Shown: positions 4,546 through 43,081 of the stretch, piece by piece
How the letters are laid out: every line of letters begins with the position of its first letter
Position numbering within the stretch: the stretch's first letter is position 1
Origin: Candidatus Wildermuthbacteria bacterium RIFCSPHIGHO2_01_FULL_48_25
GTDB taxonomy: Bacteria > Patescibacteriota > Minisyncoccia > Minisyncoccales > UBA10102
Direction: 5' to 3'
Assembly (NCBI GenBank): GCA_001823155.1
Contig: MHTR01000006.1
Location: 1 to 57,409 of the forward strand
Length of the DNA stretch: 57,409 nt
Position numbers and translations under genes: made by a program
Notes under the pieces: generated by a model
What the model saw: the letters and a program-made list of their open reading frames with translations, nothing else
What the model was told of the DNA's origin: nothing
Databases searched by the model: none

Positions 4546-5751
4546 TTAAATCGTGACGAGTTGGTACAAAGGCAGAAGAATGGCTGCCATTAACCCTCCG
4601 ACCAAAAGCCCCAGGATAACGATGAGCAAGGGTTCTAGTATAGAAAGGAAGCTCTCCACGGTATTTGCGAGCTCCCGCTGGTAGAACTGCACCACGTTCA
4701 GCAACGTGGTGTCTAACGAGCCCGACTGCTCTCCCACTAGAACCATTTGCGTGAACACCGGAGGGAATTCCAAAGGATATCTTCCTAAAACGTCGCTGAT
4801 GCGCTCTCCTTTTCTCACCGCTTCTTTTGCCTCGCCCAGTATGCTCTTGTAGTAGTCGTTCCCCACGATTTCCTGGGTTATCTCAATCGCTTCAACAATG
4901 GGAAGGCCTCCGGCGATCAGCGTGGAAAGATTCTCGGCAAAGCGCGAAAGATACATCATGCGCAAAAAGGAGTTCAGAGCGGGAACCTTGAGCACGAACA
5001 GATCAACGTTGTGCTTTCCCTGCGGCGTCTTGATATATCTGAGCAAAAAGAACACTCCTAGGGCCAGGAGCAAAAACACGAGCCACCACCAGGTGTTGAG
5101 GAATCCCGCCAAACCAATGACAACTTTAGTGATGAACGGAAGCTCTCCTCCCAAGTCACCCAGAATGCGGGTTAAGTTGGGCACCACGAACGCCATCATG
5201 AGAGTGAGCACGACGACTCCAGTGCCGACAATAAAAGCGGGGTATGTGAGAGCGCTCTTTATCTTGTTCTGGAGATTGTATTCCCGCTCCAAATGGTCTG
5301 CCAAAGACTCCAGAACCTCGGAAAGCGAGCCCGCGCTTTCTCCGCTTTTCACCATGGAAACATAGTATGAAGAGAAAACATCCGGATTCCTGCTCAATGC
5401 CTGGGATAGAGAGGTTCCTCCTTCCACATCCTCTGAAATCCTCATGATTTTCTCGGCAAACATTCTATTCCTGGTCTGCAGAGCCAGGGTTCTGAGGGCT
5501 TCCAGCAAGGTAACCTGGGATTTGAACAGGATCGCCAAGTGCCGCGAAAACATCATGACGTCTTTTGCTTTTACCCGTTCAAAGAACGAAATAGATTTTG
5601 AGTAAAAGGGCTTGTCACCCGATTCTTCCAAAATGGTGACGGTCAAGCCGTGCTGGCTGAGCAACTGCAAAGCAGCGTCTTTTGAAGAAGCTTCAATAAC
5701 TCCTACTTGGGTTTCTCCTGTTTGGTTCCTCGCTTGATAGTTGAACTTCAC
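4546..5751 (-). CDS. pilC: type IV pilus platform protein PilC (GspF family)
   Basis: 401 aa with duplicated GspF-type domains and 3 TM segments. GTG start, with GTGA overlap with the stop of the GIY-YIG ORF. Confidence 0.9.
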   Translation of the reverse strand: MKFNYQARNQTGETQVGVIEASSKDAALQLLSQHGLTVTILEESGDKPFYSKSISFFERVKAKDVMMFSRHLAILFKSQVTLLEALRTLALQTRNRMFAEKIMRISEDVEGGTSLSQALSRNPDVFSSYYVSMVKSGESAGSLSEVLESLADHLEREYNLQNKIKSALTYPAFIVGTGVVVLTLMMAFVVPNLTRILGDLGGELPFITKVVIGLAGFLNTWWWLVFLLLALGVFFLLRYIKTPQGKHNVDLFVLKVPALNSFLRMMYLSRFAENLSTLIAGGLPIVEAIEITQEIVGNDYYKSILGEAKEAVRKGERISDVLGRYPLEFPPVFTQMVLVGEQSGSLDTTLLNVVQFYQRELANTVESFLSILEPLLIVILGLLVGGLMAAILLPLYQLVTI

Positions 5752-6035
5752 CCCGTTAGAGATAGGAAACGCTTCAATCTGTTTTTCAGATAGCGTTTAC
5801 CCATACCAGATTTAAGATATATCTCTCTTGACCTTGCATCTTGTTCGTTGACACACGCTTCATAATAGATGAATTTCCATGGACCTCTCTTATTCGTTGA
5901 ACGACTTTTCCCAGAATTGTGCTGATTGAAGCGTTTCCGTAAATCATTGGTAGAACCTGTATACCACCTCCTGTTCTTGTTTTGAAGCACATACACATAG
6001 AACATGGTTGATGAGCTATCTCTAACGGGGTTCAT
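5748..6035 (-). CDS. stand-alone GIY-YIG nuclease domain protein (COG2827/YhbQ-like)
   Basis: 95 aa. FYVYVLQ..., YTGSTNDLRKRFNQHN, ...YYE...AR.RE..LK match the GIY-YIG core. The first codons (MNPVRD) and last codons (SLTG) are encoded by the terminal inverted repeats. ATGA overlap with the pilT stop. Confidence 0.85.
   Translation of the reverse strand: MNPVRDSSSTMFYVYVLQNKNRRWYTGSTNDLRKRFNQHNSGKSRSTNKRGPWKFIYYEACVNEQDARSREIYLKSGMGKRYLKNRLKRFLSLTG
5749..6035 (-). mobile_element. inverted-repeat-bounded insertion carrying the GIY-YIG ORF (copy A, putative autonomous copy)
   Basis: Sense strand: ATGAA-C-CCCGTTAGAGATAG...CTATCTCTAACGGG-GTGAA. Perfect 14-nt terminal inverted repeats lie at 5752-5765 and 6016-6029, flanked by the ATGAA/GTGAA direct repeat. 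Five shorter copies share the termini. Confidence 0.7.
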
Positions 6036-7078
6036 CTAATAAGGTTTCGCAATTCGGCAGGGTGCAGAGAATAGGCGAGCGCGTTGTCCATGGTGATTTC
6101 CTTTGCCTTTACTAAGCTTGCCAAACTCCGGTTCAAGCTCACCATTCCCATTTCTGCCGAGGTTTCTATGACCAGGGGCAATTCGTGTATCTTTTTTTCC
6201 CGAATGAGGTTTGAAACCGCGGGAGTCGTGAGCATGACTTCCAAAGCGGGAATGAGCCCGCCTTTGGTGCGAGGGAGTAAGCGTTGGGAAACCACGCCAA
6301 GCAAGGAACCCGAAAGCTGAGCCCTGATCTGGTCTTGCTGGTCTGCGGCGAACGAGTCAACGATGCGGTGCACCGATTGGGCGGCTGAATTGGTGTGCAG
6401 GGTGGCAAACACCAGGTGCCCGGTTTCCGCCGCGGTAATCGCGGTTGCAATGGTTTCGGGGTCTCGCATTTCTCCTACCATGATGACATCAGGGTCTTGA
6501 CGAAAGGTTGCTCGCAATGCCCGGGCAAAACTCACGGCATCCTGCCCTATTTCCCTTTGGTCTACAATCGCCTTGTCATCAGTAAAGATATATTCAATAG
6601 GGTCTTCAATGGTAATAATGTGGTCATTCCTCGTGTGGTTCACCTCGTCTACCAAAGCAGCCAACGTGGTTGACTTTCCATGGCTCGAAGGCCCGGTTAT
6701 TAACACGAACCCCTGGGTTGCCTTGCTGAACTCGTGGAGAACAGGAGGGAGGTTCAGTTCTTCAATGGTGCGGATTTTTGCCTGGATCAACCTGAACGCG
6801 GCAGACAAGGTGTTCTGCTGGTAGAATACGTTGGTTCGGAAGCGCGCTTTTCCTGCTAAGGCGTAGGAAAAATCCACTTCTTTCTCGCGTGACAATCGCT
6901 CTTTCTGTTCCCCGGTGAGCAAAGGAAGAATCATTTCTTCCAAAGCAGCTCCAGTCAGCTTTTTTCTCTTCACCAAGGGCACCAACCTTCCTTCCACCCG
7001 TAAAATGGGAGGTTGGCCTTCTGATAAGTGCAAATCCGACGCTTGTTCCGCTAACGCTAACCCCAGCAGTTCTTCCAT
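6032..7078 (-). CDS. pilT: type IV pilus retraction ATPase PilT
   Basis: 348 aa. Walker A GPSSHGKST, and the IITIEDPIE and ATLHTNSAAQ motifs of PilT/PilU ATPases. Confidence 0.92.
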   Translation of the reverse strand: MEELLGLALAEQASDLHLSEGQPPILRVEGRLVPLVKRKKLTGAALEEMILPLLTGEQKERLSREKEVDFSYALAGKARFRTNVFYQQNTLSAAFRLIQAKIRTIEELNLPPVLHEFSKATQGFVLITGPSSHGKSTTLAALVDEVNHTRNDHIITIEDPIEYIFTDDKAIVDQREIGQDAVSFARALRATFRQDPDVIMVGEMRDPETIATAITAAETGHLVFATLHTNSAAQSVHRIVDSFAADQQDQIRAQLSGSLLGVVSQRLLPRTKGGLIPALEVMLTTPAVSNLIREKKIHELPLVIETSAEMGMVSLNRSLASLVKAKEITMDNALAYSLHPAELRNLIR

Positions 7079-42987: not shown

Positions 42988-42997
42988 ACTTATTCAT

Positions 42998-43081
42998 CCC
43001 GTTAGAAGTTAGCTGCTTTCATGCCTCATTACATCCTGTTAGCACCGTGCATATTTGTGGGAAACTTCTAACGGGATTCAT
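42998..43081 (-). mobile_element. MITE-like copy F of the CCCGTTAGA element
   Basis: Sense strand: ATGAAT-CCCGTTAGAAGTT...GTGCTAACAGGAT...AACTTCTAACGGG-ATGAAT-AAGT-ATG(infB). The upstream gene now ends ..HESR-TAG inside the left repeat. Removing the element restores ..CAT GAA TAA. Confidence 0.75.

What the first reader, a model, noticed from the sequence alone, without database searches (positions are those of the whole stretch)
5749..43081. Family-level signature: six copies, covarying ATGRA flanking repeats, covarying inner repeat bases, and complete orientation bias
Seen in sequence, the flanking pentamers or hexamers match within each copy but differ between copies: A ATGAA/GTGAA, B ATGAA/ATGAA, C ATGGA/ATGGA, D ATGAA/ATGAA, E ATGGAA/ATGGAA, F ATGAAT/ATGAAT. 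That is the pattern of a ~5-bp target-site duplication with an ATGRA preference. The invariant core CCCGTTAGA/TCTAACGGG is extended by copy-specific but always complementary bases: GATAG/CTATC in A, GAT/ATC in D, AAC/GTT in B and E, AGC/GCT in C, and AGTT/AACT in F. All six copies have the same orientation relative to their host genes, five on the minus strand and one on the plus strand. In five of six the right-hand repeat provides or precedes the start codon of the downstream gene (pilC, response regulator, pilB, pilM, valS). Each left-hand ATG opens a short uORF beginning MNPVR or MDPVR. Four of the six copies lie within the 6.2 kb of pilus operon 1. Statistical support from six copies is modest.
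Basis: seen in the sequence. Interest (0 to 1): 0.88.

Follow-up and report, generated by a model that had tools for sequence, protein, structure and literature searches.

The report
Tiny nuclease transposons at start codons
The six repeats are copies of an apparently undescribed, very small mobile DNA element (77-278 bp; one copy still encodes its own 85-95-residue GIY-YIG nuclease) that inserts at gene start codons and rebuilds the start codon by duplicating four host bases.

Summary
There are six copies (12 core matches against 0.27 expected by chance), and flanks, complementary extensions and orientation are as described. Three related genomes have the same pilus operon without the insertions, so these are true insertions that duplicate TGAA or TGGA of the start codon. 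That ORF starts at the left duplicated ATG and stops on the TGA of the right duplicate. The other five copies are non-coding deletion derivatives (MITEs). A census of 154 MITE copies and about 75 full-length copies refines the anatomy. The inverted repeat is 13 nt: Y, then CCCGTTAGA, then three variable but complementary bases. The duplication is T-N-N-A, 4 bp (3-5), not a 5-bp ATGRA. A second covarying helix lies inside the ORF. Mismatches show no G:U excess, which argues for a DNA structure rather than an RNA one. Record titles place the family across Patescibacteria and also in Planctomycetota, Omnitrophota and Deltaproteobacteria MAGs. Best reading: a new class of miniature transposon mobilised by its own structure-specific nuclease. 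The enzymology is inferred. No description was found in the searchable literature.

The parts
5751..6030 (-). Copy A, the full-length element (280 bp including the terminal C..G pair). TIRs are at 6018-6030 and 5751-5763.
   Evidence: I8: 16-nt arms, 100% complementary. It has the same architecture as about 75 full-length relatives.
5748..6035 (-). GIY-YIG nuclease ORF (95 aa from the flank ATG; 85 aa from the internal ATG). The start ATG lies in the left duplicated flank and the stop TGA (5748-5750) in the right duplicated flank, overlapping the GTG start of pilC.
   Evidence: (PF01541, 3e-17).
5765..5938 (-). Second helix inside copy A. The right-subterminal arm (5765-5779) pairs with an internal arm (5924-5938), 15/15 complementary.
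   Evidence: I14. Conserved with compensatory changes in 51 full-length copies.
6031..6034 (-). Left TGAA copy of the duplication at copy A. It also carries the pilT-like gene's TGA stop.
   Evidence: Empty site in L221/L222.
5747..5750 (-). Right TGAA copy of the duplication at copy A (part of the pilC start GTGAAG).
7470..7548 (-). Copy B, a 79-bp MITE (T..A terminal pair) at the response-regulator start. TGAA repeats are at 7549-7552 and 7466-7469.
   Evidence: 15-bp stem, z -4.2. Empty site in L220. 91% identical to copy E.
9288..9406 (-). Copy C, a 119-bp MITE at the pilB start. TGGA repeats are at 9407-9410 and 9284-9287.
   Evidence: Empty sites in L220 and L221, where pilB natively starts ATGGAY.
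11799..11882 (-). Copy D, an 84-bp MITE at the pilM start and a deletion derivative of the A type. It keeps A's right 24 nt and the subterminal hairpin. TGAA repeats are at 11883-11886 and 11795-11798.
   Evidence: Empty site in L220.
17693..17772 (+). Copy E, an 80-bp MITE at the valS start. The 5-nt TGGAA repeats are at 17688-17692 and 17773-17777.
42997..43076 (-). Copy F, an 80-bp MITE inserted at the last codons of the DUF4446 gene. The C-terminus changes from ..HE* to ..HESR*. TGAA repeats are at 43077-43080 and 42993-42996, and IF-2 starts at 42987.

Best explanation
The six repeats belong to one family of miniature DNA transposable elements. Each copy is bounded by 13-nt terminal inverted repeats (Y-CCCGTTAGA-NNN ... 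NNN-TCTAACGGG-R; Y/R and NNN vary but stay complementary). Each is flanked by a duplicated host tetranucleotide T-N-N-A, which here is the TGAA/TGGA of start codons. Copy A is the full-length form. Its 278 bp are filled by one ORF for an 85-95-aa GIY-YIG nuclease of the Slx1/UPF0213 (structure-specific endonuclease) branch. Copies B to F are internally deleted, non-coding derivatives (MITEs), presumably mobilised in trans.

Shown by sequence: because the element sits on a start codon, the host ribosome-binding site and the left ATG drive translation into the element. The nuclease ORF ends on the TGA of the right repeat, which overlaps the regenerated host start (ATGA/GTGA). The host gene therefore keeps an intact start codon and can stay translationally coupled.

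Inferred: the nuclease recognises a DNA hairpin or cruciform formed by the inverted repeats, plus a second conserved helix in full-length copies, and cuts at its base. It, or the same activity at T-N-N-A targets, makes breaks staggered by about 4 nt. Host polymerase and ligase finish the job, which gives the duplication. Restriction to start codons and co-orientation with genes reflect target preference together with selection in a genome that is 91% coding.
For: Insertion is proven. Relatives with PilB 81-82% and 67% identical (L220, L221, L222) have the same operon with a single ATGAAA/ATGGAY at the pilM, pilB, response-regulator and pilT|pilC junctions.

Census of flanks. L[-1]/R[+1] are complementary in 92% of 154 copies. 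The direct repeat is in register at L[-5..-2] = R[+2..+5], exact in 80 of 154, with consensus TNNA.

Stem covariation. The three bases after the core pair in 93/90/82% of copies, then pairing drops to 31%. Mean extension is 2.9 against 0.88 for shuffled partners.

Full-length copies. About 75 of 80 metagenome loci have the same TIRs around a 272-284-bp ORF, typically ATGAAT|..|ATGAAA, with the stop in the right flank. A second helix is present: 96.1% of cells paired, 11 pairs with double changes, and 107 compensatory cells against 23.8±4 in shuffles and 7-12 when slid. Non-Watson-Crick pairs show no G:U excess (GT/TG 15 against AC/CA 17), which argues for DNA rather than RNA.

Protein. Pfam GIY-YIG 3e-17. 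The nearest structures are UPF0213 1zg2/1ywl and then SLX1, by sequence and by fold. Catalytic-motif residues are invariant and pN/pS is 0.33.

Nuclease and TIR co-vary. More distant GIY-YIG homologues carry different TIRs but the same layout, with TGA just outside the repeat (L131, L120).

Recent activity. B and E are 91% identical at different loci with different duplications, and L038 has copies 97-100% identical.

Gene starts. 40 of 44 full-length and 56 of 76 MITE copies that abut an ATG/GTG are followed by an ORF of at least 60 aa, against 30% of random RTGAA sites. In the window, 5 of 6 insertions are at starts although only 20 of 526 RTGRA sites are starts.
Against: No GIY-YIG enzyme is known to carry out strand transfer, so joining must be left to the host; this step is pure inference. 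About half of the MITE copies and roughly a third of the full-length copies lack an exact direct repeat. In ORF-oriented copies the right flank is far more constant than the left, and the left is often the reverse-complement type. A simple cut-and-fill model does not explain this. The one widely sampled full-length protein checked (P0069; 24 contigs read of 204 index blocks) sits in a single genomic context, so recent movement of a full-length copy was not seen. MITEs in the non-Patescibacteria MAGs were not linked to a cognate nuclease in the DNA fetched. Taxon labels are MAG record titles.
Confidence: 0.65

Rival explanations
1. Homing-like copy-and-paste. The nuclease only breaks empty T-N-N-A/ATGAA sites. 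The break is then repaired by copying a resident element, using the few bases of flank microhomology. There is no excision and no true staggered-cut duplication.
For: GIY-YIG enzymes are classic homing endonucleases (PMC1564403). Repeat length varies from 3 to 5 nt, as microhomology would. ATGAA dominates among full-length copies. The orientation relative to TGAA is fixed, as a templated process would give.
Against: Closely related copies B and E carry different duplications (TGAA and TGGAA), and C carries the host's own TGGA. The protein has no DNA-binding extension that could give a long homing site. The covarying hairpin has no role in this model.
Confidence: 0.15
2. The repeats are ordinary MITEs moved in trans by a conventional (DDE or other) transposase encoded elsewhere. 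The GIY-YIG ORF is a passenger or helper.
For: TIRs plus a short duplication are the hallmark of DDE-type elements. GIY-YIG chemistry alone cannot join DNA. No recent movement of a full-length copy was seen.
Against: In about 75 diverged copies the ORF fills the element exactly from TIR to TIR. It even uses flank bases for its start and stop, leaving no room for another gene. Other GIY-YIG clades have their own TIRs. No transposase was seen next to any copy in the window or in the fetched loci. The ORF is under purifying selection.
Confidence: 0.1
3. A REP/RAYT-like domesticated system. A single vertically inherited nuclease gene maintains a population of hairpin repeats that serve the host, for example in mRNA stability, translation coupling or RNase III processing.
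For: The ratio is one coding copy to five hairpin copies in the window. The coding copy sits at a fixed locus across many samples. All copies are transcribed within operons, at positions where a hairpin could affect translation.
Against: Close relatives lack all four pilus-operon copies, so the host genes do not need them. MITE interiors are not conserved between genomes. There is no G:U bias as expected for a selected RNA structure. Nuclease genes sit at many different loci in different genomes.
Confidence: 0.06
4. The hairpins are non-mobile regulatory RNA or terminator-like structures, conserved upstream of genes.
For: Strong predicted stems lie immediately before start codons.
Against: There is presence/absence polymorphism with duplicated flanks. 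The same 13-nt ends occur next to unrelated genes in many phyla. One form is protein-coding. Rfam gives no match.
Confidence: 0.01

Closest known systems
MITEs with an autonomous partner (for example Correia/CREE elements of Neisseria, or the cyanobacterial Nezha; both named from my own knowledge)
   Same: Short size, terminal inverted repeats, short target-site duplication, many non-coding copies that share their ends with a coding copy, and location at gene boundaries within transcripts.
   Different: The coding partner is only about 275 bp. It encodes a GIY-YIG nuclease, not a DDE transposase. The repeats covary as a stem. Start and stop codons of the ORF come from the duplicated target.
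IS200/IS605 with PATEs, and REP/RAYT with REPINs (HUH single-strand transposition; from my own knowledge)
   Same: Very small elements whose ends are defined by DNA hairpins. Non-coding hairpin derivatives outnumber the coding copy. Insertion next to a short tetranucleotide in a fixed orientation.
   Different: There is no HUH/Y1 domain. A real duplication of host bases exists, as copies C and E and the empty sites show, whereas IS200/IS605 make none. The ends are true inverted repeats.
Slx1 / UPF0213 (YhbQ, YazA, BH0048, EF2693) branch of GIY-YIG nucleases
   Same: This branch gives the best sequence and fold matches (1zg2 at 7e-11; SLX1 chains). The protein is a minimal stand-alone domain of about 85 aa.
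   Different: Prokaryotic members were regarded as vertically inherited repair proteins, and the selfish GIY-YIG lineages were placed in the UvrC branch (PMC1564403). Here the gene is bounded by TIRs and duplications and sits at variable loci.
GIY-YIG homing endonucleases (I-TevI, Seg proteins)
   Same: A GIY-YIG nuclease encoded by a selfish element. There is weak similarity to TIGR01453 (26 bits, below the cut-off of 56).
   Different: There is no NUMOD or other DNA-binding domain, no intron or intein, and no long cognate target. Insertion sites share only T-N-N-A.
GIY-YIG-encoding, non-intron insertions in rRNA genes of CPR bacteria (Tsurumaki et al. 2024, PMC11270868)
   Same: Same host group. 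[quoted passage not shown]
   Different: That paper does not describe inverted repeats, duplications, MITE derivatives or start-codon insertion. Whether those insertions are the same family was not tested here.
Rickettsia palindromic elements (RPE; from my own knowledge)
   Same: Palindromic mobile repeats in a reduced genome that are tolerated within expressed genes.
   Different: RPEs insert in frame inside ORFs and have no known coding partner. These elements sit at start codons or gene ends and have a nuclease-coding form.

Membership tests
MITE (generic class) | Terminal inverted repeats | tested here: met
   13-16-nt perfect arms in all six copies, and in the census copies, which were selected by requiring the exact inverted 9-nt core.
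MITE (generic class) | Target-site duplication, verified against empty sites | tested here: met
   Four empty sites in L220/L221/L222. An exact 4-nt repeat in 80 of 154 copies.
MITE (generic class) | Small, non-coding, multi-copy, sharing ends with a coding element | tested here: met
   Copies B to F are 77-117 bp with no ORF. Copy D shares 24 nt of its right end and its subterminal hairpin with the coding copy A.
Classical insertion sequences (DDE, DEDD, HUH, serine or tyrosine transposases) | Encodes a transposase of one of those classes | tested here: not met
   The only domain is GIY-YIG PF01541. NCBIfam, PHROGs and PADLOC give nothing else.
IS200/IS605 and PATE | HUH Y1 TnpA; no inverted repeats and no target duplication | tested here: not met
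   No HUH domain. Inverted repeats and duplication are both present.
REP/RAYT (REPIN) | RAYT (HUH) gene flanked by REP sequences | tested here: not met
   The flanked gene is a GIY-YIG nuclease.
GIY-YIG homing endonuclease genes | GIY-YIG catalytic domain | tested here: met
   PF01541 at 3e-17; conserved motif residues.
GIY-YIG homing endonuclease genes | Extended DNA-binding region and a long (14-40 bp) cognate target; residence in an intron or intein, or free-standing in phage | tested here: not met
   The protein is 85-95 aa with only the catalytic domain and one C-terminal helix. Sites share 4-6 bp. No intron families were found and no phage relatives.
Slx1/UPF0213 protein family | Sequence and fold closest to UPF0213/Slx1 rather than to UvrC/I-TevI | tested here: met
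   1zg2 at 6.8e-11, 1ywl at 1.7e-4, SLX1 at 0.01-0.09, compared with I-TevI at 0.59. Foldseek gives the same order.
Slx1/UPF0213 protein family | Structure-specific cleavage of branched or hairpin DNA | not testable with these tools
   Needs biochemistry. The only indirect support is the covarying DNA helices.
Known RNA families (Rfam 15) | Match to a curated covariance model | tested here: not met
   Only tRNAs reach the gathering threshold. Nothing overlaps the copies at E<=1 in 5600-12000.
Penelope-like elements | Reverse transcriptase fused to GIY-YIG | tested here: not met
   No RT domain; the ORF is 95 aa.

The most novel reading that the evidence does not exclude
A stand-alone Slx1/UPF0213-type GIY-YIG nuclease of about 85 residues is the sole mobility enzyme of a new class of prokaryotic DNA transposon. 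At about 275 bp these would be the smallest autonomous mobile elements known. They would move through a DNA hairpin or cruciform intermediate and take both their start and their stop codon from the duplicated target. A substantial part of the 'UPF0213/Slx1-like repair protein' family (14,124 clusters at 50% identity with E<=1e-3) would then be mobile-element genes rather than housekeeping genes.
Probability: 0.45. Interest if true: 0.92.

Novelty: categorically new. Interest (0 to 1): 0.86.

Why it matters
If the nuclease moves the element, this adds a sixth enzyme chemistry to prokaryotic transposition, beside DDE, DEDD, HUH, serine and tyrosine. It would also set a new lower size limit for an autonomous mobile element. 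It would give a function to the widespread, uncharacterised UPF0213/YhbQ/YazA-like proteins. It would explain 'domain insertions' and fusions of GIY-YIG noted since 2006 (PMC1564403) and the unexplained GIY-YIG insertions in CPR rRNA genes (PMC11270868). It shows how a parasite can live in a 91%-coding, streamlined genome: it sits on the start codon, borrows the host's translation signals and hands translation back through an ATGA overlap. On the practical side, gene callers mis-annotate starts, produce fusion proteins and miss the 85-aa ORF (it was called in only one of the five same-strain contigs that contain this stretch). A compact sequence- and structure-specific nuclease with a defined 13-bp site could also be a useful tool.

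Tried and rejected
1. RNA-element reading. Rfam gives nothing at gathering threshold or at E<=1. Stem mismatches show no G:U over A:C excess in oriented copies. Rejected in favour of a DNA structure.

2. A 5- or 6-bp duplication. Rejected because L[-6]/R[+1] and L[-1]/R[+6] match only 45-50% of the time, whereas L[-1]/R[+1] are complementary in 92%. Copy A (ATGAAC/GTGAAG) also fits only the 4-bp model.

3. An IS605-like model in which the right tetranucleotide belongs to the element. Rejected because in copy C the right TGGA is the host pilB's own start, as the empty sites show. Copy E likewise carries TGGAA on both sides, although no empty site was examined for it.

4. A sticky-end model in which a copy inherits its donor's duplication. 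Disfavoured because B and E are 91% identical yet have TGAA and TGGAA.

5. Polymorphism among six contigs of the same strain. All copies are identical, so this was uninformative. One script failed on a wrong file name.

6. Looking for an identical full-length protein in several contexts. P0069 occurs in one context only.

7. Degenerate extra copies in the window. One-mismatch cores are at chance level apart from the internal right-end copies in B and E. The 1739 site is not an element.

8. Relatives in annotated phage and plasmid collections. None beyond 37-39% yazA-like hits.

9. Literature. Ten searches (GIY-YIG with CPR, MITE, transposase/TSD, RAYT, inverted repeats, Patescibacteria, UPF0213/YhbQ, the core sequence itself) found no description. 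Only open-access papers and bioRxiv preprints are covered.

10. The orientation of MITE interiors relative to the duplication is only modestly supported: an internal right-end-like motif is in sense 35 times against 16.
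Full report
**1. The observation**

The 9-mer CCCGTTAGA occurs 12 times in the 57.4-kb window as six inward-facing pairs. 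Chance would give 0.27, and no shuffle out of 100 reached 12. The pairs span 278, 77, 117, 82, 78 and 78 bp.

Read in the direction of the neighbouring gene, every copy has the form ATGRAY | CCCGTTAGA + 3-5 copy-specific bases ... complementary bases + TCTAACGGG | RTGRA. Five copies lie on the minus strand and one on the plus strand, each co-oriented with the gene that follows.

Those genes are pilC (T2SSF), a response regulator, pilB (T2SSE), pilM and valS. The sixth copy (F) sits on the last codons of a DUF4446 gene. Its duplicated ATGAAT is ..CAT GAA TAA, not a start codon, and IF-2 starts 10 nt downstream in another frame. Copy E's left ATG is 7 nt from the core and reads MESR*, so the 'MNPVR/MDPVR uORF' holds for five copies out of six.

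The window comes from a Patescibacteria (CPR) genome. The same locus is in GCA_001825005.1, the closest PilB relatives are labelled Wildermuthbacteria, and there are 18 tRNA genes in 57 kb.

**2.

Copy A is not a long spacer. It is one ORF (5748-6035, minus strand, 95 aa) with a GIY-YIG catalytic domain (PF01541, E 3e-17). The ORF starts at the ATG of the left flank and reads through the left repeat (N-P-V-R-D) and the right repeat (..F-L-S-L-T-G). It stops on the TGA formed by the right flank (GGG|GTGA), and that TGA overlaps the GTG start of pilC. On the other side, the left flank's TGA is the stop of the pilT-like gene.

Homologues are numerous: 4,878 clusters at 90% identity in a word-limited search, and 14,124 clusters at 50% identity at E<=1e-3 and 2,225 at E<=1e-10 in the exhaustive search. 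The best of them keep MNPVRD at the N-terminus and RFLSLTG at the C-terminus. The repeats that encode those residues are therefore conserved across the family.

**3. Proof of insertion**

Five of six contigs of the same strain contain all of copies A to E, identical to the window; the sixth (L006) contains B, C and D, also identical. More distant relatives are informative. L220 (PilB 81% identical; GCA_030650125.1), L221 (82%) and L222 (67%) have the same pilM-pilN-pilO-x-pilB-(RR)-pilT-pilC operon with tight or overlapping junctions and no element.

Three junctions illustrate this:
- pilM: L220 reads ..cttgatatactat|ATGAAACTACC; the window reads ..cttgatatactacATGAAT[82 bp]ATGAAACTACC.
- pilB: L221 reads ..gtaact|ATGGACCTT; the window reads ..cttcATGGAT[117 bp]ATGGACGTA.
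- pilT|pilC: L221 reads ..cattag|ATGAAATTC; the window reads ..attagATGAAC[278 bp]GTGAAGTTC.

The elements are therefore insertions that duplicate the bases of the start codon.

**4. Census and refined anatomy**

An exact-pattern scan (CCCGTTAGA, 45-75 nt, TCTAACGGG) found 13 stretches in viral contigs.

By record title the hosts are mostly Patescibacteria of many classes. They also include Planctomycetota (among them an anammox MAG), Omnitrophota, Deltaproteobacteria/Thermodesulfobacteriota, Nitrospirae, KSB1, WOR-3 and a few 'Gammaproteobacteria' MAGs. Some of these sit on contigs of 0.3-1.2 Mb.

The scan and the window together give 154 unique copies, with these properties:
- **Terminal pair.** The base before the left core and the base after the right core are complementary in 92% of copies (C..G 80, T..A 60). 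They belong to the element.
- **Duplication.** The direct repeat is in register at the next four bases. It is exact in 80 of 154 copies and has consensus T-N-N-A (TTCA/TGAA 27, TTTA/TAAA 21, TTGA/TCAA 10, TCCA 6). A few copies have 3- or 5-nt repeats, including copy E.
- **Variable stem bases.** The three bases inside the core vary but pair in 93, 90 and 82% of copies. The fourth pairs in only 31%, which is background. Mean extension is 2.9 against 0.88 when partners are shuffled.

The inverted repeat is therefore 13 nt, Y-CCCGTTAGA-NNN, with four covarying positions. This explains copy A's apparent mismatch: it is A-TGAA-[C...G]-TGAA-G.

The target differs by lineage. In copies labelled Patescibacteria the duplication is mostly TGAA or TGGA, and 54 of 85 copies abut an ATG or GTG. 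In the other phyla TAAA (GTAAAC) dominates. MITE interiors are not conserved between genomes.

**5. Full-length copies**

A metagenome scan with a protein alignment returned 80 loci. About 75 of them have the same repeats around a 272-284-bp element, mostly 275 or 278 bp.

Among the 55 first analysed, oriented by the ORF:
- 38 have the left flank RTRARY, most often ATGAAT.
- 49 have the right flank RTRAR.
- 34 have identical tetranucleotides on both sides.
- 44 abut an ATG or GTG on the right, and 40 of those open an ORF of at least 60 aa or one that runs off the contig.
- Only 3 have a gene start facing away from the left end.

For comparison, 30% of random RTGAA sites in the same loci open such an ORF. 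In the window only 20 of 526 RTGRA sites are predicted starts and 47 are intergenic, yet 5 of 6 insertions are at starts.

In 12 of 51 copies the frame from the flank ATG is closed after MNPVRD, and the nuclease must start at the internal ATG as an 85-aa protein. The AlphaFold model agrees: residues 1-10 have low confidence, whereas the core is confident (mean pLDDT 83). The stop is almost always the TGA or TAA of the right repeat.

Uncorrected pN/pS over 253 pairs is 0.33. The GIY, YIG, Arg, His-Asn and Glu positions are invariant. The protein is therefore maintained by selection.

**6. A second covarying helix**

In copy A the 15 nt just inside the right repeat (coding R-L-K-R-F) are perfectly complementary to an internal 15 nt (coding R-K-R-F-N) (I14). 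In 56 full-length copies the best internal match is 12-15 of 15 at the same position. Shuffled arms give 8-10.

On an alignment of 51 copies, the two helices together show:
- 96.1% of cells paired;
- 11 pairs with changes on both sides;
- 107 compensatory cells, against 23.8±4 in column shuffles and 7-12 when the partner is slid by 1-3 columns.

Seven of the 15 pairs of helix 2 covary. Non-Watson-Crick cells are GT/TG 15 against AC/CA 17 in helix 2. Counts in MITE stems oriented by the duplication are similarly balanced. A sense-strand RNA structure should tolerate G:U but not A:C, so the structure is more likely formed by DNA, on either strand or as a cruciform.

MITE D keeps exactly this subterminal hairpin plus both repeats. 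All five MITEs fold as single-stranded DNA into a terminal stem of 14-15 bp (z -4.2 to -5.4).

**7. The enzyme**

By profile search against PDB sequences, the best matches are the UPF0213 proteins BH0048 (1zg2, 6.8e-11) and EF2693 (1ywl). SLX1 chains follow. T4 endonuclease II and I-TevI are only marginal. Foldseek with the model gives the same order. NCBIfam, PADLOC and PHROGs add nothing above threshold.

Slx1 is a structure-specific endonuclease of branched DNA (established knowledge; summarised in PMC1564403).

More distant GIY-YIG homologues found by chance in the fetched loci have the same layout but different repeats:
- L131: TACCCTGTTAAAT/ATTTAACAGGGTG, with the ORF ending ..SYLTG and TGA in the flank.
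- L120: CCCCTCACCATTTCTAT/ATGGAAATGGTGAGGGG, with TGA in the flank.

Nuclease and repeat therefore co-vary. That argues that the protein recognises its own ends.

**8. Mechanism: what is shown and what is inferred**

Shown:
- insertion with duplication of T-N-N-A;
- 13-nt covarying inverted repeats;
- a coding form and deletion derivatives that share its ends;
- co-orientation with host genes, and start and stop codons borrowed from the duplication;
- recent activity (B and E 91% identical at different loci with different duplications; 97-100% identical copies in L038).

Inferred: the Slx1-like nuclease binds the hairpin or cruciform made by the repeats and helix 2 and cuts at its base. Breaks about 4 nt apart at T-N-N-A targets, filled in and ligated by the host, then give the duplication. 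MITEs are mobilised in trans.

My confidence is about 0.9 that this is a mobile-element family with a GIY-YIG-coding member. It is about 0.6 that the nuclease is the mobility enzyme, and about 0.4 for the hairpin/cruciform, staggered-cut mechanism as worded.

The main rival is homing-like copying by microhomology-primed repair. A trans-acting conventional transposase, a REP/RAYT-like domesticated system and a purely regulatory hairpin are less likely, for the reasons given under each rival.

**9. Unexplained**

- About half of the MITE copies lack an exact repeat. In full-length copies the right flank is much more constant than the left. When the left flank differs, it is often the reverse complement of the right (TTTAY/TTCAY against RTGAA/RTAAA), which extends the palindrome.
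- Many MITEs, including B, E and F, carry an internal copy of the right end (GCTAACGGGAT). Across the census it is in sense orientation 35 times against 16.
- L038 has two identical copies in tandem, 6 nt apart.
- L017 has a variant-core mini-element nested inside another element.

**10. Comparison with what is known, and novelty**

The element behaves like a MITE family with an autonomous partner, and it resembles IS200/IS605-PATE and RAYT-REPIN systems in relying on DNA hairpins. It fails their defining tests: there is no DDE or HUH enzyme, and a true duplication is present. It also fails the tests for a homing endonuclease gene: there is no DNA-binding extension, no intron and no long target.

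The 2006 survey of the superfamily treated prokaryotic Slx1-like proteins as vertically inherited repair enzymes and placed the selfish lineages in the UvrC branch. It did note an unexplained, very recent 'insertion' of such a domain into an HsdR protein. [quoted passage not shown]

Neither paper describes repeats, duplications, MITE derivatives or start-codon insertion, and neither did any of ten full-text searches. The searchable library holds only open-access papers and bioRxiv preprints, so a description elsewhere cannot be excluded.

On this evidence I rate the element as a new class of mobile element, with the enzymology still to be shown.

Noticed in passing
window 2607-2650, 17003-17048, 47136-47173; also 17232-17272, 41003-41046, 14749-14848: A second, unrelated family of short perfect palindrome doublets (AAACTTGGCCCGGCCAAGTTT, 2-6 nt, AAACTTGGCCGGGCCAAGTTT). 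Two of them lie in frame inside the TsaD ORF (16503-17675), where they add ..SNLARPSLLKLGRAKF.. and ..LPKLRLGRGPKRSLG... They look like RPE-type in-frame palindromic insertions.
   Followed up: partly
L131:1255-1515 and L120:5275-5538: More distant GIY-YIG ORFs (about 44% identity) bounded by different inverted repeats (TACCCTGTTAAAT..; CCCCTCACCATTTCTAT..). Again the ORF ends just inside the right repeat and the TGA stop is in the flank. This suggests a superfamily in which nuclease and ends co-evolve.
   Followed up: partly
proteins P0261, P0245, P0248, P0282: Gene callers predict fusion proteins. In three, the GIY-YIG module is joined in frame to prepilin-like proteins (..LSLTG..FTLIEILLALAIL..). 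One is a 655-aa HsdS-like protein with two GIY-YIG modules inserted in frame, each preceded by LPAP and ending in RQAG. These may be insertions of related elements inside or at the start of genes.
   Followed up: no
L038:2943-3104 and 6122-6199 (Jorgensenbacteria MFKK01000008.1): Two 100%-identical 78-nt copies lie in tandem, separated only by GCTCAC, and a 97%-identical copy with a clean GTTTAC/GTTTAC duplication lies 3 kb away. This is a sign of very recent activity and an unexplained tandem arrangement.
   Followed up: no
L017:3736-3827 (IMG/VR contig): A mini-element with variant core CCCTGTTAGA is nested inside a CCCGTTAGA element. It is flanked directly by TAAA/TAAA. The outer element also contains an internal copy of the right end.
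   Followed up: no
L025, L046, L078, L118, L125, L138 and other loci: By record title, copies with the same 9-nt core occur in Planctomycetota, Omnitrophota, Deltaproteobacteria, Nitrospirae and other non-CPR MAGs, usually with GTAAAC-type flanks rather than start codons. No cognate full-length nuclease was seen in the 8-kb pieces fetched.
   Followed up: partly
window 5752-11881: Four of the six copies lie in one type IV pilus operon, and several fusion proteins elsewhere involve pilin-like genes. This could be chance, a hot spot, or a consequence of ATGAAA starts and operon junctions.
   Followed up: no
window, whole: There are 18 tRNA genes in 57 kb, a short IF-2 (493 aa) and 91% coding density, consistent with a streamlined CPR genome. 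The 85-aa nuclease ORF was called in only one (L005) of the five same-strain contigs that contain this stretch.
   Followed up: no
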